Below are positions 19,897-42,199 of a stretch of 64,000 bases of DNA, in pieces. The position numbers were made by a program, and so were the translations under genes. The stretch's first letter is position 1. The number at the start of each line of letters is the position of its first letter. Where the stretch lies: the NCBI GenBank assembly GCA_002937505.1, contig PTJY01000004.1:125186-189185 (forward strand), in the 5' to 3' direction. Source of the stretch: Alphaproteobacteria bacterium MarineAlpha12_Bin1. Lineage in GTDB: Bacteria; Pseudomonadota; Alphaproteobacteria; UBA6615. Below the pieces are notes generated by a model that made no database searches, was not told where the DNA came from, and saw nothing but the letters and a program-made list of their open reading frames with translations.

Positions 19897-21573
19897 ATGA
19901 CGATTATGTCTGGCGCGCAAGTTATGGCAGATATGCTTAAGGGGTATGGTGTTACACATGTGTTTATGGTTCCTGCTGTTTTGCGTCGTACTATGGTAGA
20001 ATTAGAATTACGAACAGACATAAAGCGCTTACATGTTCATTCAGAGAAAACGGCAGCTTATATGGCTGATGGTTATGCGAGGGCTACAGGTAAACCTGGC
20101 ATTTGCATGGCACAAGTTATTGGAGCACTAAACTTGGCTGCAGGACTTAGAGATGCTCATTTAGCTCATTCACCTGTTATTGCAATGACTGGTGGTAGAG
20201 ATCCCAGCACCAAGTTTCGTGGAGTTTATCAGGAGGTTGATGACGTGCCAGCATTTGAACCAGTTACTAAGTTCAATGCTACTATCGATAGTGTTGATAG
20301 ATTTCCTGATATGATCAGACAAGCATTTAGAGTGGCCGCCTCTGGTACTCCAGGCCCTGTTCATCTACAATTTCAAGGTAATGAAGGGCAAATTGATGCA
20401 GAAGAGGCGGACATGGAGGCTCTTTGTGAGACGGCGTTTAGCCAGATCCCGCCGTTTCGACCTGAACCCTCTGAGGTAGATCTCAGGTCTGCATTAGATC
20501 AGTTAGAGTCTGCTGAACGGCCAGTAATTATAGCAGGCGGTGGTGTTAGAGCATCGGGGGCATCGTCATCTCTATTGTCTTTGGCTGAACGATTAAATAT
20601 TCCAATCGCCACATCACTCAATGGTAAAGATTCTGTGCCGGGCAATCATCCACTTTCTGTTGGTGTTGTAGGTACTTATTCGCGTGAGAGTGCTAACCGA
20701 GTAGTAAATGAAGCAGATCTAGTTGCTTTCATAGGTACCACGGCAGGAGGAATGACAACACATTTTTGGCAAGTTCCACCCATCGGGGTTGCGGCAATAC
20801 AGATAGATCTTGAACCGGAAATTATAGGGAGGAACTATCCGTTGAAAGCATCGGTTCAAGCGGATGCCAAAGTTGCCTTAGAAAAAATGCTTGCCCTTAC
20901 GAACGCTGAATCTGCCTCTAGGAGATCCAAGTGGATCGATAGAGCCGCCTTAATTGTAAACGAATGGAATGAAAAATTTCATGATTTATTGAACTCTGAT
21001 TCTTTGCCAATAAGACCTGAACGTATCTGTAATGAACTATCAGAGCACTTACCAAGTGATGCTATTGTTGTTGCTGATACTGGTCATGGGGGAATGTGGA
21101 TGGGAGGAATGTATGATTTACGTTCTCCGAACCAAAGTTATATGAGGAGCGCAGGTCATCTTGGTTGGGCTTTTCCTGCCGCACTAGGTGCTAAATGTGG
21201 TGCGCCCGACAGGCCTGTTTTTTGTTTTACTGGTGATGCAGGTTTTTGGTATCACATTGCTGAAGTTGAAACAGCTGCTCGTTGGGGTATTAAAACTGTT
21301 ACTCTTGTTAACAATAATAGCTCCGGGAATCAGTCTAAAAGAGGTTTTGATCGAGTTTATGGAGGTGAGCAGACTGATGAGGCACTGAGGCTTTGGCACT
21401 TTTCTGATGTTAACTTTGCTGAAATTGCTGAAAATATGGGTGGTATAGGAATACGTGTTGAAAAGCCGTCTGATCTACCTTCAGCTCTGCAAAAAGCATT
21501 TGAAGCAAATGGACCTGTTATAATTGATGTGATAACGGATATTGATGCATTGGCACCGCTTGCTGTTATTTAA
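19897..21573 (+). CDS. Thiamine pyrophosphate-dependent enzyme (acetolactate synthase / 2-hydroxyacyl-CoA lyase / oxalyl-CoA decarboxylase superfamily)
   Basis: Three-domain TPP architecture. The TPP-binding GDAGF...NN motif region is FTGDAGFWYHI...LVNNNSSGN. GAGGAG RBS. Confidence 0.8.
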   Translation: MTIMSGAQVMADMLKGYGVTHVFMVPAVLRRTMVELELRTDIKRLHVHSEKTAAYMADGYARATGKPGICMAQVIGALNLAAGLRDAHLAHSPVIAMTGGRDPSTKFRGVYQEVDDVPAFEPVTKFNATIDSVDRFPDMIRQAFRVAASGTPGPVHLQFQGNEGQIDAEEADMEALCETAFSQIPPFRPEPSEVDLRSALDQLESAERPVIIAGGGVRASGASSSLLSLAERLNIPIATSLNGKDSVPGNHPLSVGVVGTYSRESANRVVNEADLVAFIGTTAGGMTTHFWQVPPIGVAAIQIDLEPEIIGRNYPLKASVQADAKVALEKMLALTNAESASRRSKWIDRAALIVNEWNEKFHDLLNSDSLPIRPERICNELSEHLPSDAIVVADTGHGGMWMGGMYDLRSPNQSYMRSAGHLGWAFPAALGAKCGAPDRPVFCFTGDAGFWYHIAEVETAARWGIKTVTLVNNNSSGNQSKRGFDRVYGGEQTDEALRLWHFSDVNFAEIAENMGGIGIRVEKPSDLPSALQKAFEANGPVIIDVITDIDALAPLAVI

Positions 21574-21597
21574 TATAAGCAGAAAATCATTATAATA

Positions 21598-23271
21598 TCA
21601 GGTCTTTTTAGCCCAAGTGTCCCTCAATGGAACTGTTCTATTGAATATTGGATTTTCTTGAGTGCTATTTAAGTCTGCACAAAAATATCCCAATCTTTCA
21701 AATTGAATGGTCGTGTTTGATTTAAAATCCAATATAGAAGGTTCTAAAAAGCAATTAGTTAAACTCTCTAATGATGTTTTATTCACGTCTTCAATCCAAT
21801 CACCATTCGATCCTGGTATGGCTTCTGTAAAGAGTTCGTTATAAAGATTAATTGTAGCTTTTTTTGAGTGGTTTGCAGAGACCCAATGCAAAGTTCCCTT
21901 AACCTTGCGACCGTCAGGTGAGTTACCTCCTCGGCTTGCAGGATCATAATGACATCGAAGTTCAATTATGTTTCCCTTTTTGTCTTTTATAACTTCTTTA
22001 CAAATTATCAAATAAGCGTATCTCAGCCTTACTTCTCTTCCAGGACCCAATCGAAAGAACTTTTTAGTTGGGTTTTCCATGAAATCATTATGCTCAATAT
22101 ATATCTCTCTAGAGAATAATAATCTACGAAAACCGTCATCTTCGTTATTAGGATTATTGGTTGCTTCAAGCTCATCCTTAAATTGTGGGTCTTCAGGATA
22201 ATTTTCAATAACGATCTTTAGGGGATTCAATACAGCCATACGTCTTTGGGCTGTCACGTTTAAATGTTCCCGAACAGTATTTTCAAAATAAGACATCTCC
22301 ACAATTCCATCAGACTTTGTAACACCAAGTCGCCCCACAAAATCTCTTATGGCTTCAGGGGGTACACCTCTTCTTCTAAGACCTGCTAACGTAGGCATTC
22401 TAGGATCATTCCAGCCTGTTACGTAACCACACTCTATTAATTTAAGAAGACGTCTTTTTGAAAGGATTGTGTGGCTAAGATTTAATCTAGAAAATTCATA
22501 TTGTTTTGGTTTAGAGGGAATGGATAAATTTTCAAGAAACCATTCATAAAGGGGACGATGGTCTTCAAATTCTAGTGTGCACAATGAATGAGTGACGTTT
22601 TCAATTGCATCTGACTGACCATGACCAAAATCATACATAGGGTATATGCACCAATTATTGTTAGTTCGTGGGTGATTAGCGTGCATTATTCGATAGATTA
22701 CAGGATCTCTAAGATTTAAGTTACCTGACTGCATGTCTATTTTAGCTCGTAAGGACATTTTACCTTCTTCGAATTCGCCATTTTTCATGCGCTCAAACAG
22801 ATCAAGATTCTCAGCTATTTCTCTGTTTCTTGAAGGGCTTTCTATGCCAGGTTCTGTCAATGTTCCACGGTACGATCGCATTTCATCTGGGGAGAGATCA
22901 TCTACATAGGCCAAGCCTTTGTTTATTAATTCTATCGCCCAGTCATAGAGTTGTTCGAAGTAATCAGATGTATAACGAATATTGTTTTCAAAATTAAAAC
23001 CTAGCCATGTTAAATCAAATTTTATTGCATCTATATATATCTGGTCTTCTTTTGTGGGGTTTGTATCATCAAATCTGAGATTACAAAGTCCCTGAAACTC
23101 CTGTGCCACCCCGAAATTTAGGCAAATCGATTTGGCATGACCGATGTGTAGGTATCCATTCGGTTCTGGAGGAAAACGAGTAACGATTTTTTCGTGTAAA
23201 TTTGCTGCTATATCCCCTCGGATTATTTCACGAATAAAGTCGTTTTTCTGAGACAGATTTTTTTCAGTCAT
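21598..23271 (-). CDS. glnS: Glutamine--tRNA ligase
   Basis: Almost colinear with E. coli GlnRS as recalled: FIREII..., TRFPPEPNGYLHIGHAKSICLNFG (HIGH), VMSKR (KMSK), C-terminal anticodon-binding barrels, ending RDTWAK. Start placed at the internal ATG (MTEKNLSQ...) by alignment to GlnRS N-termini. The ORF track starts 27 nt upstream at 23298. Confidence 0.85.
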   Translation of the reverse strand: MTEKNLSQKNDFIREIIRGDIAANLHEKIVTRFPPEPNGYLHIGHAKSICLNFGVAQEFQGLCNLRFDDTNPTKEDQIYIDAIKFDLTWLGFNFENNIRYTSDYFEQLYDWAIELINKGLAYVDDLSPDEMRSYRGTLTEPGIESPSRNREIAENLDLFERMKNGEFEEGKMSLRAKIDMQSGNLNLRDPVIYRIMHANHPRTNNNWCIYPMYDFGHGQSDAIENVTHSLCTLEFEDHRPLYEWFLENLSIPSKPKQYEFSRLNLSHTILSKRRLLKLIECGYVTGWNDPRMPTLAGLRRRGVPPEAIRDFVGRLGVTKSDGIVEMSYFENTVREHLNVTAQRRMAVLNPLKIVIENYPEDPQFKDELEATNNPNNEDDGFRRLLFSREIYIEHNDFMENPTKKFFRLGPGREVRLRYAYLIICKEVIKDKKGNIIELRCHYDPASRGGNSPDGRKVKGTLHWVSANHSKKATINLYNELFTEAIPGSNGDWIEDVNKTSLESLTNCFLEPSILDFKSNTTIQFERLGYFCADLNSTQENPIFNRTVPLRDTWAKKT

Positions 23272-23320
23272 TTTATTGATTTCATGTCTTGTGCGCACTG
23301 TGATAGAAAAAGCATTTCTG

Positions 23321-23920
23321 TTATTCTTTTATTCGCATCACCTTTAAAGCGTTGGCCCATTTGGCTAACTCAGGAATCATGTTTTTTGCTGATTGAATGT
23401 GTATTTCTTTTGGAAGAAAGACGCCATCATTAATGTGTTCTGACACCATTGGAATTGGAACAGCCTCAAAAATTGGAACAACTCTAAATGTTGTAAGTAG
23501 AAGTTTTTCCATTTGTACACCTCTTAAACCGCCTGAAACCCCACCATAGCTAACAAATGAGGCAGGTTTATAATGCCACTCTGATGCTAAATAGGTTAAA
23601 GCATTTACAAATGATGGTGGAGGACCATAATTGTATTCTGGTGTCACAAAAACATAAGCATCAGCAGAGTCAACGCATTTACTCCACACTTTAGTTTCTT
23701 CATTTACATATTCGCCAAACCTCGGATGTTTTGGTTCATTAAAAACAGGTAAGTTAAAGTCAAGAAGGTCTATGTTTTTAACATCAAAAATATCCTTGAA
23801 TTCATTTGATGCATATTCAACAAACCAGTTCGCTATCACTGGCCCAATTCTTGTTGGACGAGTGCTAACGGTTATGACATTTAACTTAAGCATTTCGTTT
23901 AAACTCCTATTTCTTGTCAT
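23321..23920 (-). CDS. NADPH-dependent FMN reductase family (flavodoxin-like fold) oxidoreductase
   Basis: Flavodoxin-like N-terminus (ITVSTRPTRIGPVIANWF), ~200 aa. Confidence 0.65.
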   Translation of the reverse strand: MTRNRSLNEMLKLNVITVSTRPTRIGPVIANWFVEYASNEFKDIFDVKNIDLLDFNLPVFNEPKHPRFGEYVNEETKVWSKCVDSADAYVFVTPEYNYGPPPSFVNALTYLASEWHYKPASFVSYGGVSGGLRGVQMEKLLLTTFRVVPIFEAVPIPMVSEHINDGVFLPKEIHIQSAKNMIPELAKWANALKVMRIKE

Positions 23921-23934
23921 ACTTCGCTAAACAA

Positions 23935-23961
23935 AAGCCCGGCTTACTAGCCGGGCTTTTT
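23935..23961 (-). terminator. Rho-independent terminator (bidirectional hairpin)
   Basis: AAGCCCGGC-TTACTA-GCCGGGCTT perfect 9-bp GC-rich stem flanked by A-run/T-run on both sides. Lies 18 nt downstream of the stop of the 23979-24938 minus-strand gene. Confidence 0.6.
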
Positions 23962-23978
23962 GATGATTAAGGCTTCGG

Positions 23979-24938
23979 CTATGGACTTACATGTTCAATG
24001 AATCTCATGGGAGCTGGTTCACCCCATTGAGATCCAAAACCTTCCTCGGCCGAAACGTGTTTAGTGCCATAATCCTTATTTAACACATCTGTATCACACC
24101 AATGTTCATGGACTCGATCCCAAGGGTCCATCCAGTAATCATAGATTTGACTTCCCAACACGTGCCTTCCTAGTCCCCATACGTGATCATAGCCTTTTTC
24201 TTTGAGATGTTCGTGTCCCATGACAACATCATCAAAATCTTGTACCTCATAAGAAAGGTGATTTAGTCCAGCTCTTTCGTTGTGCACAAAGAGAAAAACG
24301 TGATGGTCAACAAATTCTTCTCCGGCATCAATTCGATTGAAACTGGCGATAACCTTGTTTTCATCATCTTCAACATAAACTTCATCGGTGCCCACCAGGC
24401 CAATATGATGTCTCATCCAAGATATTGATTCAGTTAGTTTTGGCGTGCCTATAACACCGTGACCTATCCTTTTGGGCTGAGACGGCCCTTTGGGTTTTCT
24501 CCAAAGCTCACCAGCGCGTGCTCTTTTATCAACATTTCCAAGATTATAGGCATGACGCTCGACTTTGATTGGTTCTAATTCATCGATACCCCAAACTACC
24601 TCTATTCCATATCCGTTTGGCTCCGTTATAATAACTCTTTTACCACCTCCGGGTTCGTCTATATCATGAACATCACTAGCGGTCTCTGCTTCCGCTGCTA
24701 GTTTATGAAGGTCTTCTTCTGAGGCTGCATTAAAAGCCAGACTAACGAATCCTGGATCACCTTTCTCGGTGACATGAATATGATGATCAGGATCTGTGCC
24801 GCGCATATATAAAGCGTCATTAGTTCTTTCTGCGCGAACCATACCGAAGTTAGTGAGAAACTCTTCTTGTATGTCTAAATCAGGTGACTTAATTCTTCCC
24901 CAAGCAATGTCGGTCACCCTAATAATTGGCTCAGCCAT
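23979..24938 (-). CDS. Two-domain VOC-fold extradiol ring-cleavage dioxygenase-like protein
   Basis: ~320 aa with two glyoxalase-fold modules. His/Glu-rich C-terminal metal site (HHVFLFVHNE..., NHLSYEV). Architecture of type I extradiol dioxygenases. GGAGTGAGAAA RBS. Confidence 0.55.
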   Translation of the reverse strand: MAEPIIRVTDIAWGRIKSPDLDIQEEFLTNFGMVRAERTNDALYMRGTDPDHHIHVTEKGDPGFVSLAFNAASEEDLHKLAAEAETASDVHDIDEPGGGKRVIITEPNGYGIEVVWGIDELEPIKVERHAYNLGNVDKRARAGELWRKPKGPSQPKRIGHGVIGTPKLTESISWMRHHIGLVGTDEVYVEDDENKVIASFNRIDAGEEFVDHHVFLFVHNERAGLNHLSYEVQDFDDVVMGHEHLKEKGYDHVWGLGRHVLGSQIYDYWMDPWDRVHEHWCDTDVLNKDYGTKHVSAEEGFGSQWGEPAPMRFIEHVSP

Positions 24939-25123
24939 TTTCTCACTCCATAATTCTTTATTTTATTCAGTTTTAAATATATTAGTTTTGTATTTATTAA
25001 TTATTGTTATAGTTAACTTAAGAAAAGAAAAAAATTAGCGCTACCCAAATATTCATTATATTTTAAAGATATTAACGTTTGTTGAGCACGAAGGCATTAT
25101 AAATTTCAGATATTGAGTTAAAA

Positions 25124-25744
25124 ATGTTTATTGATCCAGAAATTAATATAAAACCAGAACCTCTTTTGTATAATCCATTTAAGGCTTTAGTAGTACCCCG
25201 GCCTATTGGTTGGATAAGCACTATTAGCTCTAGAGGAACTATCAACCTTGCTCCTTATAGCTTTTTTAATGGTGTAGCGGATGATCCACCATGCGTAATG
25301 TACTGCCCCAATGGCACGCATCCGGAAGGGGGGCCTAAGGACAGTCTAATAAATGTGGAGGAAACTGGTGAATTTGTTTTCAATCTTTGTAATTGGGACT
25401 TGCATAAAAAGATGAATTTGACTTCTGAACATTTGCCAAGAAATGTTGATGAGATGTCAGAAGCAGGATTGGAACCATTGAACTGTGTTAAAGTAAAACC
25501 CCCTCGTGTAGCCGTTGCTCCTGCTGCTTTTGAGTGTAGATATTTAAAAACAGTTAAATTGCCAACTGGGCGAAGTGGGAGAGAGAATAATCTAGTGCTT
25601 GGAGAGGTGGTCGGAATACATATTGATGAATCTGTCATACTGGATGGGAGGGTTAGCATTAATTTATTAAAACCAGTCGCAAGATTAGGCTATATGGATT
25701 ATACAGTAGTAACTGAATCTTTTGCCATGGAACGTCCTGACTAA
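25124..25744 (+). CDS. Flavin reductase-like FMN-binding (split-barrel) domain protein
   Basis: Flavin reductase domain motifs (LAPYSFFNGVADDPPCVMYC). Confidence 0.7.
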   Translation: MFIDPEINIKPEPLLYNPFKALVVPRPIGWISTISSRGTINLAPYSFFNGVADDPPCVMYCPNGTHPEGGPKDSLINVEETGEFVFNLCNWDLHKKMNLTSEHLPRNVDEMSEAGLEPLNCVKVKPPRVAVAPAAFECRYLKTVKLPTGRSGRENNLVLGEVVGIHIDESVILDGRVSINLLKPVARLGYMDYTVVTESFAMERPD

Positions 25745-25895
25745 ACATAGACATGTAAATTTTATTGAATACTATTGGAAACATAAATTATATTGTCATA
25801 TAGACATAATTATGATCACAGGATTGACAACAGAATAAATTTTACACCTCGTCTTAATATGTTTAGCGAGGTTATCAGATTAGGAGAAATATTAC

Positions 25896-26219
25896 ATGAG
25901 GGGACCACAGGATTATGGCGGATTACCTGCAGGGCTAGTTGACCCTGTAAAGAATGAGCATGAACCCACTCATTGGGAAAGACGTGTTGATGCGATTATG
26001 TTACTTCTTTTTGATCCCAAAAGAAGATTGGCGCGTGTGGATGAATCACGTCGTATGCAGGAAGCCTTAGGAGATGACTATCATAAATATCCTTATTATG
26101 AGCGCTGGCTTCAAGCTATAACATGGTTGCTGCTTGAAAAAGGTGTTTTCACACAAGAAGAGCTTGATAAAAAGAGAGAAGAAGTAAGATCTCGACTAGA
26201 GGCCGAAAGAAATGGATAG
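25896..26219 (+). CDS. Nitrile hydratase beta subunit, N-terminal-domain half (separate gene; ScnB/ToyK-like)
   Basis: 107 aa aligning to the N-domain of NHase beta (HDxGG start region, WE.R..A, DE.R..E.L....Y...YYERW..A). AGGAGA RBS. Stop TAG overlaps the next ATG in ATGGATAG. Confidence 0.8.
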   Translation: MRGPQDYGGLPAGLVDPVKNEHEPTHWERRVDAIMLLLFDPKRRLARVDESRRMQEALGDDYHKYPYYERWLQAITWLLLEKGVFTQEELDKKREEVRSRLEAERNG

Positions 26220-26496
26220 TAAGTTCATCCCGGGAGATAAAGTCCGAGTAATAGAGCGCAGCCAACCTGGGCATGTCAGAACACCTATGTATGTACGTGG
26301 TAAACCGGGAGTGATAGAAAGAATCGTCGGTCCCCAACCTAACCCGGAGACGCTGGCATATGGACAATCCGGCCTCCCCTACAAAATGCTATATAGAGTT
26401 AATTTTTCACAAAAAGTACTTTGGCCAGATTATGAAGGTCAAGACAATGATTCTCTTGAAATAGAGATCTATGAACATTGGTTAGAGCGTATATAA
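26212..26496 (+). CDS. Nitrile hydratase beta subunit, C-terminal-domain half (separate gene; ScnA/ToyL-like)
   Basis: 94 aa aligning to the NHase beta C-domain (F.PGDKVRV..., H.R.P.YVRGK.GVI, LYRV.F...LW). Translationally coupled to the preceding gene (8-nt overlap). Confidence 0.8.
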   Translation: MDSKFIPGDKVRVIERSQPGHVRTPMYVRGKPGVIERIVGPQPNPETLAYGQSGLPYKMLYRVNFSQKVLWPDYEGQDNDSLEIEIYEHWLERI

Positions 26497-26528
26497 TTTA
26501 ATAAATTTACATCATATGAGAGAAAAAA

Positions 26529-27179
26529 ATGAGCGAACATCATCATGATCATCTAAATGCTACTCACACTCACGATGGTAAACCTATTCAGAATGATGAG
26601 CCACCCTCTATTGAAGCAGAATCTCTTGAAACTGCTGTAAGAGAATTGTTAATGGAAAAGGGTGTCATAACTGCTGATGAATTACGTGGTGCTATTGAAG
26701 CGCAGGAACAAAGGAGGCCCGAACTTGGGGCAAAGATTATTGCGCGAGCATGGGTTGATGAGGACTTCAAACAAAAATTATTGAGTCATGGGGATATGGC
26801 TGTTCGTTCTTTTGGTGTCGACATGAAGCCCACTGAGTTATGTGTGGTAGAAAACACAGAAGAGGTACATAATCTGGTTGTTTGTACCTTATGTTCTTGT
26901 TATCCGAGAGCTATTTTGGGCATTCCTCCTGCGTGGTACAAACGACGTGACTATAGGTCCAGAGCGGTACGAGAACCAAGATCAGTTTTATCCGAGTTCG
27001 GTACAATTATTTCGGAAGATAGACAGGTAAGAGTGCACGATAGCAATGCTGATTTGCGTTACTTGGTGCTGCCGATACGTCCTTCTGGTACCGATGATTG
27101 GAGCGAAGAAGATTTGGCTGAGTTGGTCACTAGGGACAGCATGATAGGTGTAGCTGAGGCGATCACACCTGATGGCTAA
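26529..27179 (+). CDS. Nitrile hydratase alpha subunit, cobalt type, with His-rich N-terminal extension
   Basis: Metal-binding VCTLCSCYP claw (Thr = Co-type) followed by PPAWYKRRDYRSRAV and C-terminal SEE..L..LVTRDSMIGV. Near-identical in blocks to remembered Rhodococcus/Pseudonocardia NHase alpha. N-terminus MSEHHHDHLNATHTHDG. Confidence 0.9.
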   Translation: MSEHHHDHLNATHTHDGKPIQNDEPPSIEAESLETAVRELLMEKGVITADELRGAIEAQEQRRPELGAKIIARAWVDEDFKQKLLSHGDMAVRSFGVDMKPTELCVVENTEEVHNLVVCTLCSCYPRAILGIPPAWYKRRDYRSRAVREPRSVLSEFGTIISEDRQVRVHDSNADLRYLVLPIRPSGTDDWSEEDLAELVTRDSMIGVAEAITPDG

Positions 27180-27375
27180 TTTTCAGGAATGCTTTCGCCA
27201 TTGATTTATATCTCTAATATTTATATTGAATCATTTTGTTTTTAGTGATTCTATGTAGTCAGAAATCATACTTTTTTTGTATTGGTTAATATTTAGAAAT
27301 TATTACTTAACTAATCATCTAATTAGTGTGAAAACTCTAATATAAATAATAACTCTATAAAAGTTCTGTAATCTT

Positions 27376-28734
27376 ATGAAAATGTTTTTCAGTATGAGAA
27401 ATAGATTAATTGTATTTTTTTTAACTCATACAAGACTGATTTGTTTTTCAGTCTTACTTGTGGGGCTTTTAGTATGGGGTTTTTTTATAACCGATGTAAA
27501 TTTAGCTAATAAAAAAGAATTGGATGAGCAGCAAACCAAAATAGCTGATAGTCTTAATTCTATTAATAAAATCGAAAACGTAATCTCTGGGTTAAATGAT
27601 AGATTAGCTGAAACGAATAAGAGGAGAGCAGATGATATTTCTAATTTTAATAAATCTCTTTCACGAAAATCTAACCTAGAAAAAGAAATTGTTAGTTTAA
27701 AAGAGTTAAGTGAGAGAAAAGACGCTAGAATAACGCAAATTTTAAATGAACTAGACAAAACTAACCTACGTGAAAAAGAAAATGCTGAACGTTTAGTGGA
27801 TATAAGGGAAACTAACTCTTTACTTGTCAAAAAGAGTGATGAACTTCGTAAAGCGCTAGAAATTAAGACTGTTCAGTTGGATGAAATTAACAAGAGACTA
27901 AAGGACACAGATGATAAAAATAACATCTTATTAAAACGCTTGAAAGAATCACGGAAGACAGCATCTTCCTTATTAATTGGAAAGCACGATAAAACCAATA
28001 ACCTGATAAATGAAGGACTTTTAAACACAAAATCTAAGAATAGTTACAGTACATCCGGCATATCCAAACAGGCGACCTTATCAAGGCTATATAAAACGAC
28101 TGATAAGACTGTCGAGACTTTAGAAAGGGCTTTGCAGGTTTCAGGCCTAAATTCTAACTTGTTGATAAAAAGAGTGCTGTCTAAAGAGGATTATTTAATT
28201 AATGGACGAGGCGGGCCTTACATTAAAATCAAAAATATAAGTGACGATAATTCAAATGTTAATTATGTAGAGCCTGAAGATAAAGTGATTAGATTAATAG
28301 GACTCCAGGAAGTAATGAAACGGATTCCATTGTCTCCGCCTCTTGATGAGTTACGAGTAAGTAGTGGTTTTGGTAAGAGAATAGATCCATTTACTAATCA
28401 ATTAGCAATGCATCCAGGTATTGATTTTGCTTCCAGAAACAAAAGCACTATTTTTACAACTGCACCAGGTGTAGTGACTTTCGTTGGTTGGAATGGGGGC
28501 TTTGGAAAAATGGTAGAGGTTGACCACGGGTTGGGTATTCGCACTAGATATGCACATTTATCAAAGATATTCGTAAAACCAGGTCAGAAGCTAGAGTTTA
28601 GAGAAAGATTAGGTCAGGTTGGCAATACAGGAAGAAGTACTGGAACTCATTTACACTATGAGATTTTATTTGATGGAAAAGAAATGGATCCTCAAAGATT
28701 TCTACGAGCCGGTCAGTATCTTTTTAAGACCTAA
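27376..28734 (+). CDS. M23 family metallopeptidase with N-terminal TM/coiled-coil (EnvC/NlpD-like murein hydrolase factor)
   Basis: N-terminal hydrophobic segment, ~200 aa of heptad-like K/E/L-rich coiled coil. C-terminal LytM domain (HPGIDFA...VDHG...NTGRSTGTHLHYEI). Confidence 0.8.
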   Translation: MKMFFSMRNRLIVFFLTHTRLICFSVLLVGLLVWGFFITDVNLANKKELDEQQTKIADSLNSINKIENVISGLNDRLAETNKRRADDISNFNKSLSRKSNLEKEIVSLKELSERKDARITQILNELDKTNLREKENAERLVDIRETNSLLVKKSDELRKALEIKTVQLDEINKRLKDTDDKNNILLKRLKESRKTASSLLIGKHDKTNNLINEGLLNTKSKNSYSTSGISKQATLSRLYKTTDKTVETLERALQVSGLNSNLLIKRVLSKEDYLINGRGGPYIKIKNISDDNSNVNYVEPEDKVIRLIGLQEVMKRIPLSPPLDELRVSSGFGKRIDPFTNQLAMHPGIDFASRNKSTIFTTAPGVVTFVGWNGGFGKMVEVDHGLGIRTRYAHLSKIFVKPGQKLEFRERLGQVGNTGRSTGTHLHYEILFDGKEMDPQRFLRAGQYLFKT

Positions 28735-28778
28735 CGTTAATAAAATATTAGTTTTTATCTAAATATTAGCTTAATAAA

Positions 28779-29780
28779 CTATTTAATAACTCTTGAATAA
28801 AATTCAGGATCAACGTTTGCTCCAGACAATATAACTACACTGTTTAGATTAGAGAAATAGTTTTTTTGTTTTAAAACAGCGGCTAACGCTACCGCTCCAC
28901 TTGGCTCGACAACAAGCTTCAGATATTGCCAGGCAAAAGACATTGCTTTTATTACGTCTTCGTCAGTAACAGCAATTCCACATGAAACAAACTTTTTGTT
29001 AATTTGAAATGTTAAATTTCCAGGACTTGGCGCTAGTAAAGCATCACAAATAGAATTTGTTGTAATTTTATTTTTCAATATTTGTCCTTCTTTGAGTGAT
29101 CGAGCTGTATCATCATAGCCAACCGGCTCTACAACAATAATTTCTGAATATGGAGATTTTTTACTGACAGTGGTTACTGTGCCGGCAGTAAGTCCACCTC
29201 CTCCGCAGCATACTAATATTTTATTAGCATTAAGACCTATTCTATCTAGTTCATCTAAAATTTCTAAGGCTACAGTACCTTGTCCTGATATTGTCCAAGG
29301 GTGGTCATAGGGGGGTATAATTGTAGAACCAGTTTTTTGGGAAAAGTTTATAGCAATCTCTTCACGATTTTCTTTGTCTCTTACGTATGTTATTACTTTA
29401 GCTCCTAGTGCACGAGTTTGTTTTAGCTTTATATCAGGGGCATCAGAGGGCATTATTATTGTCGCGTTAACTTTTAGTAGTTTTGCTGCAGCTGCTACCC
29501 CTTGAGCATGATTTCCAGATGAATAGGCTACTACTCCTTTTTTTTTATAACTTTCATTTAATTGAGAGAGAAAATTATAAGCGCCACGAAATTTAAATGA
29601 ACCAGTGTGTTGTAAAGTCTCCGCTTTAAGAAAAACCCTGCCGTTTACTAGTTCATTCAAGTGGCTGTTCTCAATTAGTGGAGTTTTAACTGCAATATTT
29701 TTTAGACGTTTTGATGCTGCTAAAACATCTTTATAATTGGGGGTAGTTTTAGATAAAGGATCTATCATTACATAATTCAA
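28779..29780 (-). CDS. PLP-dependent threonine/serine dehydratase (catabolic threonine ammonia-lyase-like)
   Basis: PLP-lysine motif TGSFKFRGA and the glycine-rich loop CCGGGGL of the Trp-synthase-beta fold. ~330 aa without regulatory ACT domains. Confidence 0.7.
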   Translation of the reverse strand: MNYVMIDPLSKTTPNYKDVLAASKRLKNIAVKTPLIENSHLNELVNGRVFLKAETLQHTGSFKFRGAYNFLSQLNESYKKKGVVAYSSGNHAQGVAAAAKLLKVNATIIMPSDAPDIKLKQTRALGAKVITYVRDKENREEIAINFSQKTGSTIIPPYDHPWTISGQGTVALEILDELDRIGLNANKILVCCGGGGLTAGTVTTVSKKSPYSEIIVVEPVGYDDTARSLKEGQILKNKITTNSICDALLAPSPGNLTFQINKKFVSCGIAVTDEDVIKAMSFAWQYLKLVVEPSGAVALAAVLKQKNYFSNLNSVVILSGANVDPEFYSRVIK

Positions 29781-29788
29781 ATTATTTT

Positions 29789-30481
29789 TTATGTTAGATC
29801 ATCGAGAGAGTTTATTATAGAATCTGGTTGATAGGGTAGTTTCTCTGAAATTAGACTATTTCTATTAACCCAAACACTATGAAAGCCAAAACTTTTAGCA
29901 CCCGCTACGTCCCAATTATTAGCTGAAACAAAACAAATATTGCTTTTATTAATTTTTAATTTATCTGTTGCCATTTGATAAACTAAAGGGTTTGGTTTGT
30001 AGATTTCTATGTCATCAATGGACATAGATAAATCGATTAAGTCACCCAAACTAGAATTTTTAATCACTTCGTTTAGCATCTGGTGTGTCCCGTTTGATAG
30101 GATGGCTATTTTACAGTCTTTATTTTTTAAAGAGTTAAGGGTCTTATTTACTTCGTTAAATGTCTTTAACTTAAGGTATAAATTCATAAGTTGGGAATGT
30201 AGTATTGAGTTGTTTATATTTACCGATTCCATTGCATAATTTAAAGCCTCTTTGGTAATTGTCCAAAAATCTGAATAAGAACCCATCATACTATGAAGCC
30301 AAGTATATTGAATTTGCTTTTCTCTCCATAACTTCGAAAGCTCTTCTGATTTGTCTCCTATAATGATTTTGTGTTCTTCTACAGCAGAGTGGAAATCAAA
30401 CAAAGTGCCGTAAGCATCAAAGACATAAGATTGATAACTAATACCCTTGGAAGAATTTTCGTGACTACATGACATCAGCAA
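29789..30481 (-). CDS. HAD superfamily hydrolase, L-2-haloacid dehalogenase (type II) subfamily-like
   Basis: Motif I YVFDAYGTLFD (nucleophile Asp) plus the downstream S/T and K and the DD motif (NNWDV). Length 230 aa. Confidence 0.65.
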   Translation of the reverse strand: MLMSCSHENSSKGISYQSYVFDAYGTLFDFHSAVEEHKIIIGDKSEELSKLWREKQIQYTWLHSMMGSYSDFWTITKEALNYAMESVNINNSILHSQLMNLYLKLKTFNEVNKTLNSLKNKDCKIAILSNGTHQMLNEVIKNSSLGDLIDLSMSIDDIEIYKPNPLVYQMATDKLKINKSNICFVSANNWDVAGAKSFGFHSVWVNRNSLISEKLPYQPDSIINSLDDLT

Positions 30482-30722
30482 TACCTTTCAATGGAAGTAG
30501 TGTTTTGACGAAAATGTTAATTTTCTTTAAAAAATCAGACAGTCGAATTAAGCGCAGAAACGAGTAACTATTTGTTATATCCGATATTAAGTAGGTAAAA
30601 TATTAATATAACTTAATTTCATAATTTGATCTAACCCTTGTAGGGTGTCGATCTTCTCGGTATCGTCACAGTATTACATTTCTGGCAACATAAATTTAAT
30701 GGCGAGACCCTAGGAGAAGAAT

Positions 30723-31601
30723 ATGTTTAAAGGATCAATCGTAGCTTTAGCGACACCATTTCGTGACGGAAAGGTGGATGAAGTTTCTTATCAAGAAATA
30801 ATTGAGTGGCAAATTTCTGAGGGCACAGACGGCTTGGTGCCAGTTGGTACAACTGGAGAGTCTCCGACATTGAGTCACGAGGAACATAAAAGAGTTGTTG
30901 AGTTGTGTATTGAGGCTTCCGATAGAAGGGTGCCTGTTATTGCCGGATCAGGTTCAAATTCAACTGAAGAAGCTGTATTTCTTACGAAGTTTGCAAAGGA
31001 TGCGGGCGCTGATGGTGCACTTGTAGTTACGCCATACTATAATAAGCCATCTCAAGAAGGTCTGTATTCTCACTTCAAAACCATAGCGGATACGGTGGAT
31101 ATTCCAATTATTATTTACAACATTCCCCCTCGGTCTGTTGTGGATATGTCAGTAGAAACTATGGCTAGGTTAGCCAATGACTGCCCTAACATAGTAGGGG
31201 TAAAGGACGCTACACAGGACTTAGTTAGGCCGCTAGATACGCGTGCCGTCATTGGAGATAAGTTCTGCCTTCTATCAGGTGAAGATGCAACGGTACTCTC
31301 TTATTTAGTTAATGGTGGAGATGGATGCATATCTGTTACAGCAAATGTAGCACCCCGTGCTTGTGCAGAAATGCATGATGCTTGGCAAAGTGGAGACTTT
31401 AAGGAAGCAATGACAATTAATGAACGTCTTTATCCTTTGCATGATGCACTCTTTGTTGAGCCAAACCCTGTTCCTTCAAAGTTTGCGTTGTCTCTTTTGA
31501 ATAAATCTACAATGGATGTTCGTCTGCCCTTAACCCCAGCAAATGAAAATACAAAGAAAACTGTACAGGCAGCTATGATGTCAGCAGGTATTCTTAACTA
31601 A
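30723..31601 (+). CDS. dapA: 4-hydroxy-tetrahydrodipicolinate synthase
   Basis: Canonical DapA blocks ([46 protein letters not shown], Schiff-base Lys in VGVKDA). GGAGAAG RBS. Followed by smpB. Confidence 0.85.
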
Positions 31602-31623
31602 TTTATTTTTTAGAAGAACTTTG

Positions 31624-32097
31624 ATGGCTAAAAAGTCTGCGACGGATAAAAAAATTGTGGCACAAAACCGCAAGGCGCGTCACGACTATTTTATAGAAGA
31701 TAATATACAAGTGGGCTTAGTCTTGCATGGATCAGAAGTTAAATCTCTACGTTTAGGGCAAGGCAGTTTAGCAGATTGTTGGGCAGGTGAAAAAGATGGA
31801 GAAATTTGGATGTTTAGTTGTTATATCCCTCAGTATTCATCGTCACATGAACCAGATTATGTTGCTAGAAGGCCACGGAAAATACTGCTTCACAAACGTG
31901 AGATGAATAAGTTACTAGGTGCTATTCAAAAAGATGGAGTTACTTTGGTGCCTCTCTCAATCTATTTTAATGACAGAGGAATTGCTAAAGTTGATCTGGG
32001 TATTGCCCGTGGAAAGAGAAAGTATGATAAAAGAGAAACGCAAAAGAAACGAGACTGGGATCGACAGAAAGCAAGACTATTGAGAGAAAAGGGATGA
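31624..32097 (+). CDS. smpB: SsrA-binding protein
   Basis: MAKK...IVAQNRKARHDYFIED...GSEVKSLR, typical SmpB. ATG at 31624 (the track begins at the TTG 3 nt upstream). Confidence 0.9.
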   Translation: MAKKSATDKKIVAQNRKARHDYFIEDNIQVGLVLHGSEVKSLRLGQGSLADCWAGEKDGEIWMFSCYIPQYSSSHEPDYVARRPRKILLHKREMNKLLGAIQKDGVTLVPLSIYFNDRGIAKVDLGIARGKRKYDKRETQKKRDWDRQKARLLREKG

Positions 32098-34106: not shown

Positions 34107-35249
34107 GTGCTAAATCAAGAACAAATGATGATCCGAGACTTAGCTCGTGATTTTTCCCAAAATGAACTTTCCCCTAATGCAGCAAGGTGGGATAGTGAGG
34201 TTATTTTTCCTGAAACCCAAATTAAAATGATGGGTCGGTTAGGTTTATTAGGAGTTCAAGTTTCAGAGAAATGGGGTGGCTCAGGATTAGGAAACACTGA
34301 ACTTGCGCTTGTAATAGAAGAGATTGCTGCTGGGGATGGGGGGTGCTCAACCATTCTTGCTGTACAAAATTCTGTTGTGTGTATGCCAATTGAAATATTT
34401 GGATCAAATGATCAAAAACAAAAATATCTAAAAGACCTGGTAAAAGGTGAGGTTTTAGGGGCTTTCATGTTGACGGAACCTCATGCTGGGTCTGATGCAG
34501 GGGCAATAAAAACTAAAGCTGAAAAGGTGGGAAATAAGTATATTCTCAATGGGTCCAAGTCATTTATAACTACAGGGAGTAGGGCAGGTTTGGCAATAAC
34601 ATTTGCAGTAACCAATCCTTCAAAGAAATCTCGTGGAATCAGCGCTTTTATTGTCCCAACGGACTCTCATGGTTTTACAGTTAATCGTATTGAAAAAAAA
34701 CTTGGGCAACGATCCTCGGAGACGTGTTCCATTACGCTGGATAATGTGGAAATTACTCCAGATTTAATGCTAGGCGAGGAAGGTGAAGGTTACCATATAG
34801 CCTTATCTAACTTAGAAGGTGGTCGTATCGGTGTTGCAGCCCAGTCTGTTGGCATGGCACGTTCTGCTTACAATGAGGCTTTAAAATATGCTATAGAAAG
34901 AGAAAGTTTTGGGCAGAAAATAGCCAATCACCAAGCTATTGCTTTTAAATTAGCTGAAATGAAGACTAAAATTGATGTTGCTCGCCAGATGTATTTACAT
35001 GCAGCTGATCTCCGGGATAGTGGAGTTAAATGCGTAGAAGAGGCATCTATGGCAAAATTATTTGCCTCTGAAATGGCTGAAGAGGTTTGTTCTGATGCCA
35101 TTCAAATTCATGGTGGTTATGGTTATCTTCAGGATTTTCCTGTTGAGAGAATATATAGAGATGTAAGGGTTACACAAATATATGAAGGAACATCTGAAAT
35201 CCAAAAACTAGTTATATCTAGAGAAATTTTATCTAAAAATTATTCATAG
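34107..35249 (+). CDS. Acyl-CoA dehydrogenase (short/branched-chain type)
   Basis: ACAD blocks (GAFMLTEPHAGSDA, catalytic YEGTSEIQK). GTG start 8 nt after a perfect AGGAGG. Confidence 0.8.
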   Translation: MLNQEQMMIRDLARDFSQNELSPNAARWDSEVIFPETQIKMMGRLGLLGVQVSEKWGGSGLGNTELALVIEEIAAGDGGCSTILAVQNSVVCMPIEIFGSNDQKQKYLKDLVKGEVLGAFMLTEPHAGSDAGAIKTKAEKVGNKYILNGSKSFITTGSRAGLAITFAVTNPSKKSRGISAFIVPTDSHGFTVNRIEKKLGQRSSETCSITLDNVEITPDLMLGEEGEGYHIALSNLEGGRIGVAAQSVGMARSAYNEALKYAIERESFGQKIANHQAIAFKLAEMKTKIDVARQMYLHAADLRDSGVKCVEEASMAKLFASEMAEEVCSDAIQIHGGYGYLQDFPVERIYRDVRVTQIYEGTSEIQKLVISREILSKNYS

Positions 35250-35264
35250 TACTGGGGTAATATA

Positions 35265-36830: not shown

Positions 36831-36900
36831 TTTCGTGCTAACTTCCTAATCAGAGGTATAAGTAATACAATAGAATGATCTTAATGAGGTACAGTGGCAA

Positions 36901-38508: not shown

Positions 38509-38513
38509 AATTG

Positions 38514-39293: not shown

Positions 39294-39384
39294 TATGAGA
39301 AGTTATTTATTATAATATAAACTCACTATAAAACGTCTTTCAAAGATACTAACAAACTGTTGATAATTTAAAACGAGGTAAAAT

Positions 39385-42180: not shown

Positions 42181-42199
42181 AGAGATACTGGAGACAAAT

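What the first reader, a model, noticed from the sequence alone, without database searches (positions are those of the whole stretch)
26529..27375. NHase alpha carries a His-rich N-terminal extension, and the locus lacks both an activator/metallochaperone and an amidase
The alpha subunit starts MSEHHHDHLNATHTHDG, about 10-15 residues longer than typical alphas and containing 7 His in 16 residues. The 196 bp downstream (27180-27375) contains no ORF. Classical Co-NHase operons carry a small activator (self-subunit-swapping chaperone) needed for Co insertion and Cys oxidation, and usually an amidase. A built-in His-rich metal-capturing tail could substitute for the chaperone. Absence of an amidase means the amide product is either the end product or is handled elsewhere.
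Basis: partly seen in the sequence, partly recalled or inferred. Interest (0 to 1): 0.6.

Follow-up and report, generated by a model that had tools for sequence, protein, structure and literature searches.

The report
Three-subunit cobalt nitrile hydratase, His-rich arm
This is an ordinary member of an already described kind of cobalt nitrile hydratase whose beta subunit is split into two genes and which needs no separate activator; the histidine-rich start of its alpha subunit is real and widely conserved but is not what replaces the activator.

Summary
The alpha gene (26529-27179) starts MSEHHHDHLNATHTHDG, with 6 His in residues 4-15 rather than 7 in 16. The 196 bp downstream hold no real ORF. 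None of the 63 ORFs in the window is an amidase, an accessory protein or a CobW-type GTPase.

The order betaN-betaC-alpha matches the published three-subunit Co-type nitrile hydratases: Streptomyces canus AnhD/AnhE/AnhA, toyocamycin NHase ToyJKL and, more distantly, thiocyanate hydrolase. In those enzymes alpha inserts cobalt without an activator, and betaN (AnhD) acts as the subunit-swapping chaperone.

About 85 related loci from many phyla share the split beta, the missing accessory gene and a CSCYP-Arg/Lys signature (classical enzymes have Trp/Phe/Leu).

The His/Asp-rich arm is conserved in composition, variable in length and predicted disordered (residues 1-22). It also occurs in classical operons that do carry an accessory protein (Pantoea, Acinetobacter, Halalkalicoccus, Sulfitobacter) and in thiocyanate hydrolase gamma. 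A few split-beta loci lack it and still have no activator.

The arm is therefore most plausibly an auxiliary Co(II)-binding arm, not a chaperone substitute. This is a new member of a known kind, of modest interest.

The parts
25896..26219 (+). betaN gene: N-terminal half of the NHase beta subunit as a separate 107-aa, 12.8-kDa protein (the AnhD / SCNase-beta equivalent). AGGAG Shine-Dalgarno at 25882-25886.
   Evidence: Pfam NHase_beta_N 3.8e-17, residues 1-100. TIGR03888 positions 1-100 of 226 only, and no TIGR03889 accessory hit. The active-site Arg and YPYYERW motif align to NHase betas. It is the only ORF in the window similar to the activator NhlE (E 5e-5). Mass.
26212..26496 (+). betaC gene: C-terminal SH3-like half of the beta subunit as a separate 94-aa, 11.0-kDa protein (the AnhE / SCNase-alpha equivalent). 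Its ATG overlaps the betaN stop (ATGGATAG, 26212-26219).
   Evidence: Pfam NHase_beta_C 1.2e-18. TIGR03888 positions 137-225. The best PDB hits are SCNase alpha 2dd4_A (1.2e-12) and P. putida beta (1.3e-12), with GHVRTPMYVRG aligned. Overlap sequence.
26529..27179 (+). alpha gene: 216 aa, 24.35 kDa, Co-type metal-binding subunit.
   Evidence: Pfam NHase_alpha 3.5e-78. TIGR01323 scores 245.4 against a cutoff of 249.85; TIGR03887 scores 214 against 291.45. The best PDB hits are Co-type NHase alphas at about 5e-56. The AlphaFold2 model has mean pLDDT 84.5.
26529..26594 (+). Codons 1-22: His/Asp-rich N-terminal arm, MSEHHHDHLNATHTHDGKPIQN, predicted disordered.
   Evidence: 6 His in residues 4-15, unique in the window. 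Conserved in composition and variable in length across 120 homologues and about 85 loci, with H15 invariant in A1. pLDDT below 50 for residues 1-22. On its own it matches only the SCNase gamma N-terminus in the PDB.
26883..26909 (+). Metal-binding motif CTLCSC (residues 119-124) followed by Y-P-R127. This is the Co-type VCTLCSCY signature, with the clade-specific Arg where classical NHases have Trp.
   Evidence: Sequence. Invariant in A1. CSCYP-R/K in 83 of 85 split-beta loci against CSCYP-W/F/L in 11 of 11 classical loci.
26518..26522 (+). GAGAG Shine-Dalgarno-like motif 6 nt upstream of the alpha ATG.
   Evidence: The same GAGAGAA motif lies upstream of the ATG in L001; L002 has GGAGG.
25745..25895 (+). 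Upstream intergenic region with two sigma-70-like promoter matches (25748-25775 and 25765-25794). This is a candidate own promoter for the three-gene cluster.
   Evidence: consensus matches only, not above the shuffled expectation.
27180..27375 (.). AT-rich intergenic region downstream of alpha, with no accessory gene.
   Evidence: Only a 22-aa TTG ORF. No Rfam hit. No terminator-like hairpin detected.

Best explanation
The locus encodes a three-subunit, cobalt-type nitrile hydratase-family enzyme. The subunits are betaN (107 aa), betaC (94 aa) and alpha (216 aa), made from one translationally coupled three-gene cluster. It is the same kind of enzyme as Streptomyces canus AnhD/AnhE/AnhA and toyocamycin nitrile hydratase ToyJKL, and it is architecturally like thiocyanate hydrolase. 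SHOWN HERE: the split beta; the Co-type CTLCSC site; the conserved beta Arg and Tyr residues; the absence of any accessory or amidase gene in 64 kb and next to about 80 related clusters; and the fact that the only protein resembling the classical swapping chaperone NhlE is betaN itself. INFERRED from experiments on ScNHase and ToyJ: Co(II) enters apo-alpha directly under reducing cytoplasmic conditions, the two Cys ligands self-oxidise, and free betaN forms an alpha-betaN2-type complex that swaps holo-alpha into the apo-enzyme. A dedicated activator is therefore unnecessary. INFERRED from composition, disorder and distribution: the His/Asp-rich residues 1-22 of alpha form a flexible, weakly Co(II)-binding arm that raises the local metal supply. 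This could be useful for a marine planktonic bacterium. The arm is an old, widespread accessory of Co-type alpha subunits, not the replacement for the chaperone. The amide product is either the end product or is handled by an unlinked enzyme, as is typical of this clade.
For: Architecture. Clade-wide conservation of the split beta (orders bN-bC-a or bC-a-bN), with one betaN-like ORF per locus and no extra activator-like ORF. As a positive control, the same HMM detects the accessory ORFs in all 11 classical loci and a P15K-like ORF in the SCNase-annotated locus. NhlE hits only the betaN ORFs. The neighbours are heterogeneous: Amidase in 1 of 74 upstream genes, none seen downstream, and no cobW listed. 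The CSCYP-R/K signature separates the clade from classical CSCYP-W/F/L enzymes. Close marine relatives keep the same synteny without accessory genes. Literature: ScNHase has the gene order anhD-anhE-anhA, no activator in its genome, direct Co insertion with DTT, and AnhD as swapping chaperone (PMC7329996). That paper also cites Nelp 2014 for ToyJ alone being sufficient. TNHase is (alpha-beta-gamma)2 with subunits of 21.2, 10 and 11.4 kDa (PMC8574189). Tail: conserved, variable in length and disordered. Cobalt transporters (CbtAB, HoxN, HupE) lie next to relatives, which supports Co dependence.
Against: No biochemistry exists for this protein: metal content, Cys oxidation, substrate and quaternary structure are all inferred. 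The rest of the source genome could not be searched, so a distant activator or amidase is not excluded. I could not align the AnhA or ToyJ sequences directly; Streptomyces split-beta loci L014 and L087, at 55-57% identity, served as proxies. Metal binding by the tail is inferred from composition only. The one experimental test of a comparable His stretch (Monosiga) found it dispensable for Co loading in Co-supplemented E. coli. TIGR01323 scores 4.4 bits below its equivalog cutoff, so even the label 'nitrile hydratase' rests on family membership rather than orthology.
Confidence: 0.6

Rival explanations
1. One reading: the His-rich tail is a built-in metallochaperone that replaces the missing activator, capturing Co and delivering it to the Cys3 site.
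For: The tail is nearly universal in the activator-less split-beta clade and absent from the activator-dependent Rhodococcus NhlA and P. thermophila alphas. Its composition resembles the metal-binding tails of Ni/Co chaperones (own knowledge).
Against: The tail co-occurs with accessory proteins in Pantoea, Acinetobacter, Halalkalicoccus and Sulfitobacter operons. It also co-occurs with them in SCNase, which has P15K (PMC3511329). Tail-less split-beta loci (L034, L040, L068, L080) still have no activator. ScNHase and ToyJ experiments explain activator independence without invoking a tail (PMC7329996). The reported masses of AnhA (21.3 kDa) and ToyJ (21.2 kDa) are close to the window alpha without residues 1-22 (21.8 kDa), which suggests they may lack the tail. 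The Monosiga (His)17 deletion keeps its metal (PMC7193024).
Confidence: 0.12
2. The tail has no metal role. It is a tolerated low-complexity spacer at the betaN/alpha or beta/alpha junction, kept because it separates or links subunits, as in the natural fusions.
For: Only composition, not sequence, is conserved over most of the tail, and its length varies from about 4 to more than 14 His. In L016, L026 and L063 the same segment is an internal linker between betaN and alpha. In opisthokont fused NHases a His-rich stretch links beta and alpha, and a spacing role was proposed (PMC3323583, PMC2603476). The Monosiga deletion mutants stay active (PMC7193024).
Against: A neutral spacer would not be expected to keep a His/Asp bias across proteobacteria, actinobacteria, cyanobacteria, Chloroflexota and haloarchaea. 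H15 is invariant, and an H-x-H-D motif next to the fold is conserved. The His bias is seen here only in Co-type alphas; I did not survey Fe-type alphas.
Confidence: 0.2
3. The enzyme is not an organic-nitrile hydratase in vivo. Like thiocyanate hydrolase, it acts on a small anionic or polar substrate (thiocyanate, cyanide-derived or similar). This would explain the missing amidase.
For: It shares three features with SCNase: the three-subunit layout, the His-rich gamma/alpha N-terminus, and the pocket Arg after CSCYP. The selectivity role of the SCNase Arg is recalled from memory of the 3VYG/3VYH work; one search shows that 3vyh_A is a P. thermophila alpha carrying YPR. Aquaporin genes lie next to two relatives.
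Against: TIGR03887 scores 214 against a cutoff of 291.45. The SCNase-specific insertion before the metal site, the C-terminal extension and the long beta N-terminus are all absent. The alpha is closer to Co-NHase alphas than to SCNase gamma (192.8 against 169.1 bits). The Streptomyces three-subunit locus L087 also has YPR, and the characterised three-subunit Streptomyces enzymes hydrate organic nitriles: acetamiprid (PMC7329996) and toyocamycin (PMC9204691).
Confidence: 0.1
4. The His-rich segment is not translated, and the true start is a later codon.
For: A few database homologues are annotated as 195 aa starting at M/L-P-S-L-E-A.
Against: The next Met is M42, inside the first conserved helix. 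The reading frame, the M-S-E/D start and the His/Asp stretch are kept in about 110 of 120 homologues despite in-frame length changes. Synonymous-only codon changes outnumber non-synonymous ones in codons 1-32. A conserved Shine-Dalgarno-like motif lies upstream.
Confidence: 0.02

Closest known systems
Streptomyces canus CGMCC 13662 three-subunit nitrile hydratase ScNHase (AnhD/AnhE/AnhA; PMC7329996)
   Same: It has the same gene order, betaN-betaC-alpha, and similar subunit sizes (10.4, 11.35 and 21.3 kDa against 12.8, 11.0 and 24.35 kDa here). It is Co-type and has no activator gene. Streptomyces split-beta relatives in my set (L014, L087) share CSCYPR and are 55-57% identical in alpha.
   Different: The organism here is a marine planktonic alphaproteobacterium, not an actinomycete. 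The reported AnhA mass suggests it may lack the roughly 22-residue His-rich arm. I did not compare sequences directly. The substrate here is unknown.
Toyocamycin nitrile hydratase ToyJKL of Streptomyces rimosus (PMC8574189; Nelp 2014 as cited in PMC7329996)
   Same: It is an (alpha-beta-gamma)2 enzyme with a split beta. Its alpha alone binds Co, self-oxidises and is active without an activator.
   Different: ToyJKL sits in a deazapurine antibiotic gene cluster and makes sangivamycin. The window has no such genes nearby; the neighbours are a flavin reductase, a glyoxalase-like protein and an M23 peptidase.
Thiocyanate hydrolase ScnB/ScnA/ScnC of Thiobacillus thioparus (PDB 2DD4)
   Same: The beta is split into two subunits. 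The gamma (= alpha) N-terminus is His/Asp-rich (DHDHDH-DHDHDHKP) and is the only PDB match to the window's tail. It has Arg after CSCYP. The betaC best hit in the PDB is SCNase alpha.
   Different: The window scores below the SCNase equivalog cutoff. It lacks the gamma insertion, the C-terminal extension and the roughly 45-residue beta N-terminal extension. SCNase has the activator P15K; the window does not.
Classical Co-type NHase operons with a self-subunit-swapping chaperone (R. rhodochrous NhlBAE, P. putida alpha-beta-P14K, P. thermophila)
   Same: The alpha is about 50% identical, with the same VCTLCSCY metal site and the same beta Arg and Tyr residues. Some classical alphas also carry a His-rich N-terminus.
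   Different: The classical enzymes have a single-chain beta, Trp/Phe/Leu rather than Arg after CSCYP, an accessory protein gene immediately downstream, and often an amidase and a cobalt transporter.
Eukaryotic fused beta-alpha NHases (Monosiga brevicollis and others; PMC2603476, PMC3323583, PMC7193024)
   Same: A His-rich stretch lies immediately N-terminal of the alpha domain. No activator is known. They are Co-type, with CTLCSC.
   Different: Beta and alpha are fused into one polypeptide, whereas here there are three separate genes. Bacterial betaN-His-alpha fusions (L016, L026, L063) are intermediate forms.

Membership tests
Three-subunit Co-type nitrile hydratase (ScNHase AnhDEA / ToyJKL type) | Beta subunit encoded as two separate genes (N-half and C-half) next to alpha | tested here: met
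   ORFs 25896-26219 (NHase_beta_N only) and 26212-26496 (NHase_beta_C only), with an 8-nt overlap. The split is conserved in about 80 related loci.
Three-subunit Co-type nitrile hydratase (ScNHase AnhDEA / ToyJKL type) | Co-type metal site V-C-T-L-C-S-C-Y in alpha, and beta Arg and Tyr residues that contact the oxidised cysteines | tested here: met
   VCTLCSCYP at residues 118-126. betaN VDESRR / YPYYERW and betaC GHVRTPMYVRG align to the corresponding residues of solved NHases.
Three-subunit Co-type nitrile hydratase (ScNHase AnhDEA / ToyJKL type) | No dedicated activator or accessory gene | tested here: met
   None in the 64-kb window. None next to about 80 related clusters, with positive controls detected. 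The whole genome was not testable.
Three-subunit Co-type nitrile hydratase (ScNHase AnhDEA / ToyJKL type) | Cobalt(III) content, Cys-SO2H/Cys-SOH modification and nitrile-to-amide activity | not testable with these tools
   Requires expression, ICP-MS, mass spectrometry and enzyme assays.
Three-subunit Co-type nitrile hydratase (ScNHase AnhDEA / ToyJKL type) | Direct sequence relationship to AnhA or ToyJ | not tested
Streptomyces split-beta loci L014 and L087 (55-57% identical alpha) served as proxies.
Classical two-subunit Co-type NHase with swapping chaperone | Alpha reaches the TIGR01323 equivalog cutoff | tested here: not met
   245.4 bits against a cutoff of 249.85.
Classical two-subunit Co-type NHase with swapping chaperone | Single-chain beta (TIGR03888 at or above 152.2 bits) | tested here: not met
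   Two half-length ORFs scoring 52.9 and 62.0 bits.
Classical two-subunit Co-type NHase with swapping chaperone | [quoted passage not shown] | tested here: not met
   196 bp without an ORF, followed by an M23 peptidase. No TIGR03889 hit.
Classical two-subunit Co-type NHase with swapping chaperone | Aromatic or hydrophobic residue (Trp/Phe/Leu) after CSCYP | tested here: not met
   Arg127 here. 11 of 11 classical loci have W/F/L; 83 of 85 split-beta loci have R/K.
Thiocyanate hydrolase (SCNase) | Gamma subunit reaches the TIGR03887 equivalog cutoff | tested here: not met
   214 bits against a cutoff of 291.45.
Thiocyanate hydrolase (SCNase) | Three subunits with a split beta, and a His/Asp-rich gamma N-terminus | tested here: met
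Thiocyanate hydrolase (SCNase) | SCNase-specific gamma insertion before the metal-binding strand, gamma C-terminal extension, and long beta N-terminal extension | tested here: not met
   The alignment with the PGAP-annotated scnC (L095) shows a 9-residue insertion and a roughly 25-residue C-terminal extension, both absent here. SCNase beta aligns from its residue 47 to window betaN residue 4.
Thiocyanate hydrolase (SCNase) | Activator P15K downstream of scnC | tested here: not met
   No such ORF in the window. A P15K-like ORF is found in the SCNase-annotated locus L095:4163-4543.
His-rich metal-binding tails of metallochaperones (a 'works like' comparison only) | Low-complexity His (plus Asp/Glu) stretch, disordered and conserved in composition | tested here: met
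His-rich metal-binding tails of metallochaperones (a 'works like' comparison only) | Demonstrated metal binding and transfer to the client site | not testable with these tools
   Needs ITC or spectroscopy on the peptide, plus deletion mutants.

The most novel reading that the evidence does not exclude
The His/Asp-rich arm is a genuine Co(II)-harvesting antenna. Its contribution would be invisible in Co-supplemented E. coli, which are the conditions under which the Monosiga His stretch was judged dispensable. At the very low cobalt levels of the open ocean it could become limiting for maturation. In that case this abundant Tara Oceans alphaproteobacterium would depend on the arm, together with free betaN, to metallate its NHase without any dedicated chaperone.
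Probability: 0.2. Interest if true: 0.5.

Novelty: new member of a known kind. Interest (0 to 1): 0.3.

Why it matters
The finding mainly corrects the annotation. What looked like a classical nitrile hydratase operon with parts missing is a complete member of the three-subunit, activator-independent class (ToyJKL, ScNHase and SCNase-like). That class turns out to be very widespread: about 80 species-level genomes across many phyla, and abundant in marine metagenomes. It can be recognised by the split beta plus a CSCYP-Arg signature.

For biocatalysis, such enzymes are attractive because they need no accessory gene.

For metallobiology, the survey shows that the His-rich alpha N-terminus is an old, common feature of Co-type NHase-family alphas and is independent of whether an activator is present. 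This narrows what the arm can be for, and it links the arm to the His-rich linker of eukaryotic fused NHases. Its actual function remains untested in bacteria.

Tried and rejected
- **Mis-called start:** rejected on homologue conservation, codon-level changes and the Shine-Dalgarno-like motif.
- **Hidden accessory ORF or RNA element in 27180-27375:** nothing found.
- **Amidase, CobW or accessory gene elsewhere in the window:** none among the 63 ORFs. The only amidohydrolase-like protein is an M20 peptidase at 15594-16985, with no link to the cluster.
- **A conserved neighbouring gene across related loci that could be a new type of activator:** BLAST clustering and Pfam enrichment of the immediate upstream and downstream genes found nothing shared beyond lineage-specific synteny.
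- **betaN as a mis-annotated activator rather than a subunit:** rejected. It carries the beta-specific N-terminal G-x-(H/Q)-D-x-G-G motif and active-site residues. The betaN HMM scores the NhlB N-half (58.7 bits, full length) above NhlE (38.4 bits, lacking the N-terminal motif). NCBIfam gives nitrile_beta, not the accessory model.
- **SCNase identity:** rejected.
- **Searching the rest of the source genome:** not possible.
- **Reading Yang et al. 2018 (PMC6201762):** the paper is not held. I relied on the review PMC7193024 for its conclusion.
- **Literature support for the SCNase pocket-arginine work:** not found in the library. That point is marked as memory.
Full report
**1. What is at the coordinates**

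The ORF 26529-27179(+) encodes a 216-aa protein that begins MSEHHHDHLNATHTHDGKPIQN. It is a nitrile hydratase alpha subunit:
- Pfam NHase_alpha scores 3.5e-78 over residues 30-209.
- The Co-type motif VCTLCSCYP lies at residues 118-126.
- The closest solved structures are Co-type NHase alphas, such as the P. thermophila enzyme at about 5e-56, aligned from query residue 24 to Pt residue 11. The N-terminus is therefore about 13 residues longer than in that reference.

This is the only 12-mer with at least 6 His in the 19,632 residues encoded by the window, against an expectation of about 0.002.

**2. The tail is translated**

- No in-frame start lies upstream, and the next Met (M42) is inside the first conserved helix.
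- A GAGAG Shine-Dalgarno-like motif sits 6 nt upstream of the ATG and recurs in the 78%-identical relative L001.
- Codons 1-32 differ from L001 by 14 synonymous-only and 10 non-synonymous codon changes.
- About 110 of the 120 nearest homologues (60-97% identity) start M-S/T-D/E and continue with a His/Asp-rich stretch of variable, always in-frame, length, followed by a more conserved H-x-H-D-G-K-P-I-Q.
- AlphaFold2 with a 33-sequence alignment gives mean pLDDT 84.5. Residues 1-22 score below 50, and the first helix starts at residue 28. The tail is therefore a predicted flexible arm.

**3.

- The interval 27180-27375 holds only a 22-aa TTG ORF. It has no terminator-like hairpin and no Rfam match.
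- I scanned all 63 ORFs of at least 70 aa in the window against Pfam.
- None matches Amidase, CN_hydrolase, FmdA_AmdA or cobW, and there is no second NHase_beta-like protein.
- NCBIfam found no TIGR03889 accessory protein among the seven ORFs from 23321 to 28734.

The rest of the genome could not be examined.

**4.

- ORF 25896-26219 (107 aa, 12.8 kDa) matches only NHase_beta_N (TIGR03888 positions 1-100).
- ORF 26212-26496 (94 aa, 11.0 kDa) matches only NHase_beta_C (positions 137-225).
- The second ATG overlaps the first stop, as ATGGATAG.
- The residues that contact the oxidised cysteines in solved NHases are present: VDESRR and YPYYERW in betaN, and GHVRTPMYVRG in betaC.
- The best PDB hit for betaC is the alpha subunit of thiocyanate hydrolase, effectively tied with P. 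putida beta.
- The 59-residue N-terminus of the window's alpha matches only one protein in the PDB. That protein is thiocyanate hydrolase gamma, whose N-terminus reads DHDHDH-DHDHDHKP.

**5. This architecture is already known**

- Streptomyces canus ScNHase has the gene order anhD-anhE-anhA, where AnhD is the beta N-half, AnhE the beta C-half and AnhA the alpha. The subunits are 10.4, 11.35 and 21.3 kDa (PMC7329996).
- No activator gene is found in the S. canus genome. Cobalt inserts directly into apo-AnhA under reducing conditions. [quoted passage not shown]
- The same paper cites Nelp et al. 2014, who showed that ToyJ, the alpha of toyocamycin NHase, suffices on its own for activity and for the cysteine modifications.
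- TNHase is an (alpha-beta-gamma)2 hexamer with subunits of 21.2, 10 and 11.4 kDa (PMC8574189).
- Thiocyanate hydrolase is the third characterised relative with a split beta, but it has the activator P15K (PMC3511329).

**6. How general it is**

Close marine relatives (L001-L005) keep the same chromosomal neighbourhood, with no accessory gene:
- The order is GlnRS, a glyoxalase-like gene, TetR in the relatives, Flavin_Reduct (in the window and L001 only), betaN, betaC, alpha, an M23 peptidase, a PALP enzyme, then DapA and SmpB.
- The window's exact alpha occurs in 54 blocks of the metagenome collection, including a 164-kb Tara Oceans contig with the same gene order.

A scan of species-representative genomes returned 80 loci at 49-78% identity. 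They come from Alpha-, Beta- and Gammaproteobacteria, Actinomycetota, Binatia, Chloroflexota, Nitrospinota, Bacteroidota and others.
- The retrieval was biased towards this clade, because one of the search patterns was RVHDS[NT]AD[LM].
- Nearly all the loci have betaN and betaC as separate ORFs. The usual order is bN-bC-a, and four loci have bC-a-bN.
- A betaN profile finds exactly one betaN-like ORF per locus, apart from a weak match to the alpha N-terminal helix.
- As a positive control, the same profile detects the annotated accessory proteins in all 11 classical operons I fetched. It also finds an unannotated P15K-like ORF in an SCNase-annotated locus.
- The classical activator NhlE, used as a query, hits only the betaN ORFs.
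- Immediate neighbours are heterogeneous. Amidase appears in 1 of 74 upstream genes. No amidase or cobW was listed among 81 downstream genes. HupE/UreJ appears twice.
- Annotated plasmid examples (Rhizobium, Streptomyces, Burkholderia, R. leguminosarum, Planktothrix) are labelled by PGAP as nthA plus 'SH3-like domain-containing protein', with no accessory protein. Several sit next to CbtAB or HoxN cobalt transporters, and two sit next to an aquaporin.
- A sequence signature separates the two kinds. CSCYP is followed by Arg or Lys in 83 of 85 split-beta loci, including the window's invariant R127. It is followed by Trp, Phe or Leu in 11 of 11 classical loci.

**7. Does the His-rich tail replace the activator?**

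The distribution argues against it.

The tail is nearly universal in the split-beta clade. But the same kind of N-terminus is also found in classical operons with full-length beta and an annotated accessory protein:
- Pantoea: MAHDHDHEHDHTEPP
- Acinetobacter: MSHKHDHDHTQPP
- Halalkalicoccus: 9 His in the first 30 residues
- Sulfitobacter: MTSHGHDHDGDHSH

It is also present in thiocyanate hydrolase gamma, which uses P15K (PMC3511329).

Conversely, L040, L068 and L080 have a split beta and no activator, yet 0-1 His in the tail. L034 is similar but has alpha only, at a contig end.

In the fused Monosiga enzyme a (His)17 stretch sits at exactly this position, immediately N-terminal of the alpha domain (PMC2603476, PMC3323583). 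It was reported not to be necessary for metal incorporation (PMC7193024, citing Yang et al. 2018).

The masses reported for AnhA and ToyJ (21.2-21.3 kDa) are close to the window alpha without residues 1-22 (21.8 kDa). This suggests, but does not prove, that those self-maturing alphas lack the arm.

**8. Most likely mechanism**

- **Shown:** a complete three-gene Co-type NHase-family module with no dedicated accessory gene nearby.
- **Inferred from ScNHase and ToyJ:** alpha takes up Co(II) directly and oxidises its own cysteines. Free betaN is homologous to the classical chaperones, and it forms an alpha-betaN complex that swaps holo-alpha into the apo-enzyme.
- **Inferred from composition, disorder and phylogenetic spread:** the His/Asp arm binds Co(II) weakly and raises the local metal supply. 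It is an auxiliary feature of many Co-type alphas, not a chaperone surrogate.
- **Substrate:** unknown. The missing amidase is normal for this clade, and in the toyocamycin case the amide is the end product.

**9. Alternatives kept open**

- The arm could be a functionally neutral spacer. Natural betaN-His-alpha fusions exist in L016, L026 and L063.
- The SCNase-like pocket Arg could mean that the physiological substrate is not a typical organic nitrile. However, the SCNase equivalog score and the SCNase-specific insertions are not met.

**10. Verdict**

The locus is a new member of a known kind, the three-subunit activator-independent Co-NHases. The tail's function in bacteria remains experimentally untested, which leaves a modest open question.

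Noticed in passing
window 26212-26219: The betaC start codon overlaps the betaN stop codon (ATGGATAG). This suggests translational coupling of the two beta halves. The split is conserved in about 80 related loci, so it is not a frameshift artefact.
   Followed up: yes
window 26907-26909 (alpha R127); loci L001-L102: CSCYP is followed by Arg or Lys in 83 of 85 split-beta loci and in an SCNase-annotated gamma. It is followed by Trp, Phe or Leu in 11 of 11 classical operons with an accessory protein. This is a simple sequence marker for the three-subunit, activator-less class. In SCNase the equivalent Arg is (from memory) a substrate-selectivity residue.
   Followed up: partly
L016:7194-8648, L026:7308-8600, L063:7611-8639: These are natural single-ORF fusions of betaN directly to alpha through the His-rich segment. 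No betaC-like ORF was detected within about 8 kb. They resemble the eukaryotic fused NHases, where a His-rich stretch links beta and alpha, but they lack the SH3-like half.
   Followed up: partly
L008, L024, L046, L056, L086, L089, L090: In these loci the gene order is betaC-alpha-betaN. betaN therefore sits exactly where classical operons place the accessory protein, and PGAP labels both halves 'SH3-like domain-containing protein'.
   Followed up: partly
L095:2517-3368 and L095:4163-4543 (Roseomonas marmotae plasmid): In a locus annotated scnC (thiocyanate hydrolase gamma), the beta halves are fused into one 283-aa ORF. An unannotated 126-aa ORF just downstream matches the betaN profile over positions 24-99, the pattern seen for accessory proteins. 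It is probably a P15K-like activator. The gamma N-terminus has 7 His.
   Followed up: partly
window alpha residues ~18-61; alphas of most loci: The betaN profile (C-terminal helices, YYERW...LLxEKGxxTxEEL) weakly matches the first helices of alpha (LETAVRELLMEKGVITADEL), at 13-28 bits. This hints at an internal similarity between the alpha N-terminal helix and the beta/activator helix.
   Followed up: no
L086, L087, L089, L090 (plasmid relatives); window 20000-32000: Soil relatives of the three-gene cluster sit next to cobalt transporters (CbtAB, HoxN), and two sit next to an aquaporin. The marine window has none of these within 64 kb. Relatives L001-L005 have a TetR regulator upstream that is missing in the window, where the flavin reductase gene directly precedes the cluster (the window, like L001, has this gene). 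The window also has an FMN reductase between GlnRS and the glyoxalase-like gene.
   Followed up: partly
window 58452-60041 (-): This ORF encodes a 529-aa protein with four rhodanese domains. Rhodaneses can make thiocyanate from cyanide, and a rhodanese also lies about 10 kb from the cluster in L002. There is no evidence of a functional link.
   Followed up: no
window 34107-43108 (+): This looks like a leucine/isovalerate catabolic cluster. It encodes an acyl-CoA dehydrogenase, a carboxyltransferase, an enoyl-CoA hydratase, a biotin carboxylase, an unassigned 217-aa ORF (41527-42180) and an HMG-CoA lyase-like gene.
   Followed up: no
window 26529-27179; L103: The exact alpha protein occurs in 54 blocks of the metagenome collection, including a 164-kb Tara Oceans contig with identical gene order. 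The source is therefore a common uncultured marine bacterium. The nearest named records are 'Alphaproteobacteria bacterium' MAGs.
   Followed up: partly
window alpha residues 63-118: The alpha also gives sub-threshold or domain-level hits to NHLP leader-peptide families (TIGR03793, PF14407). This is the known relationship of those RiPP leaders to NHase alpha and does not indicate a RiPP gene here.
   Followed up: no
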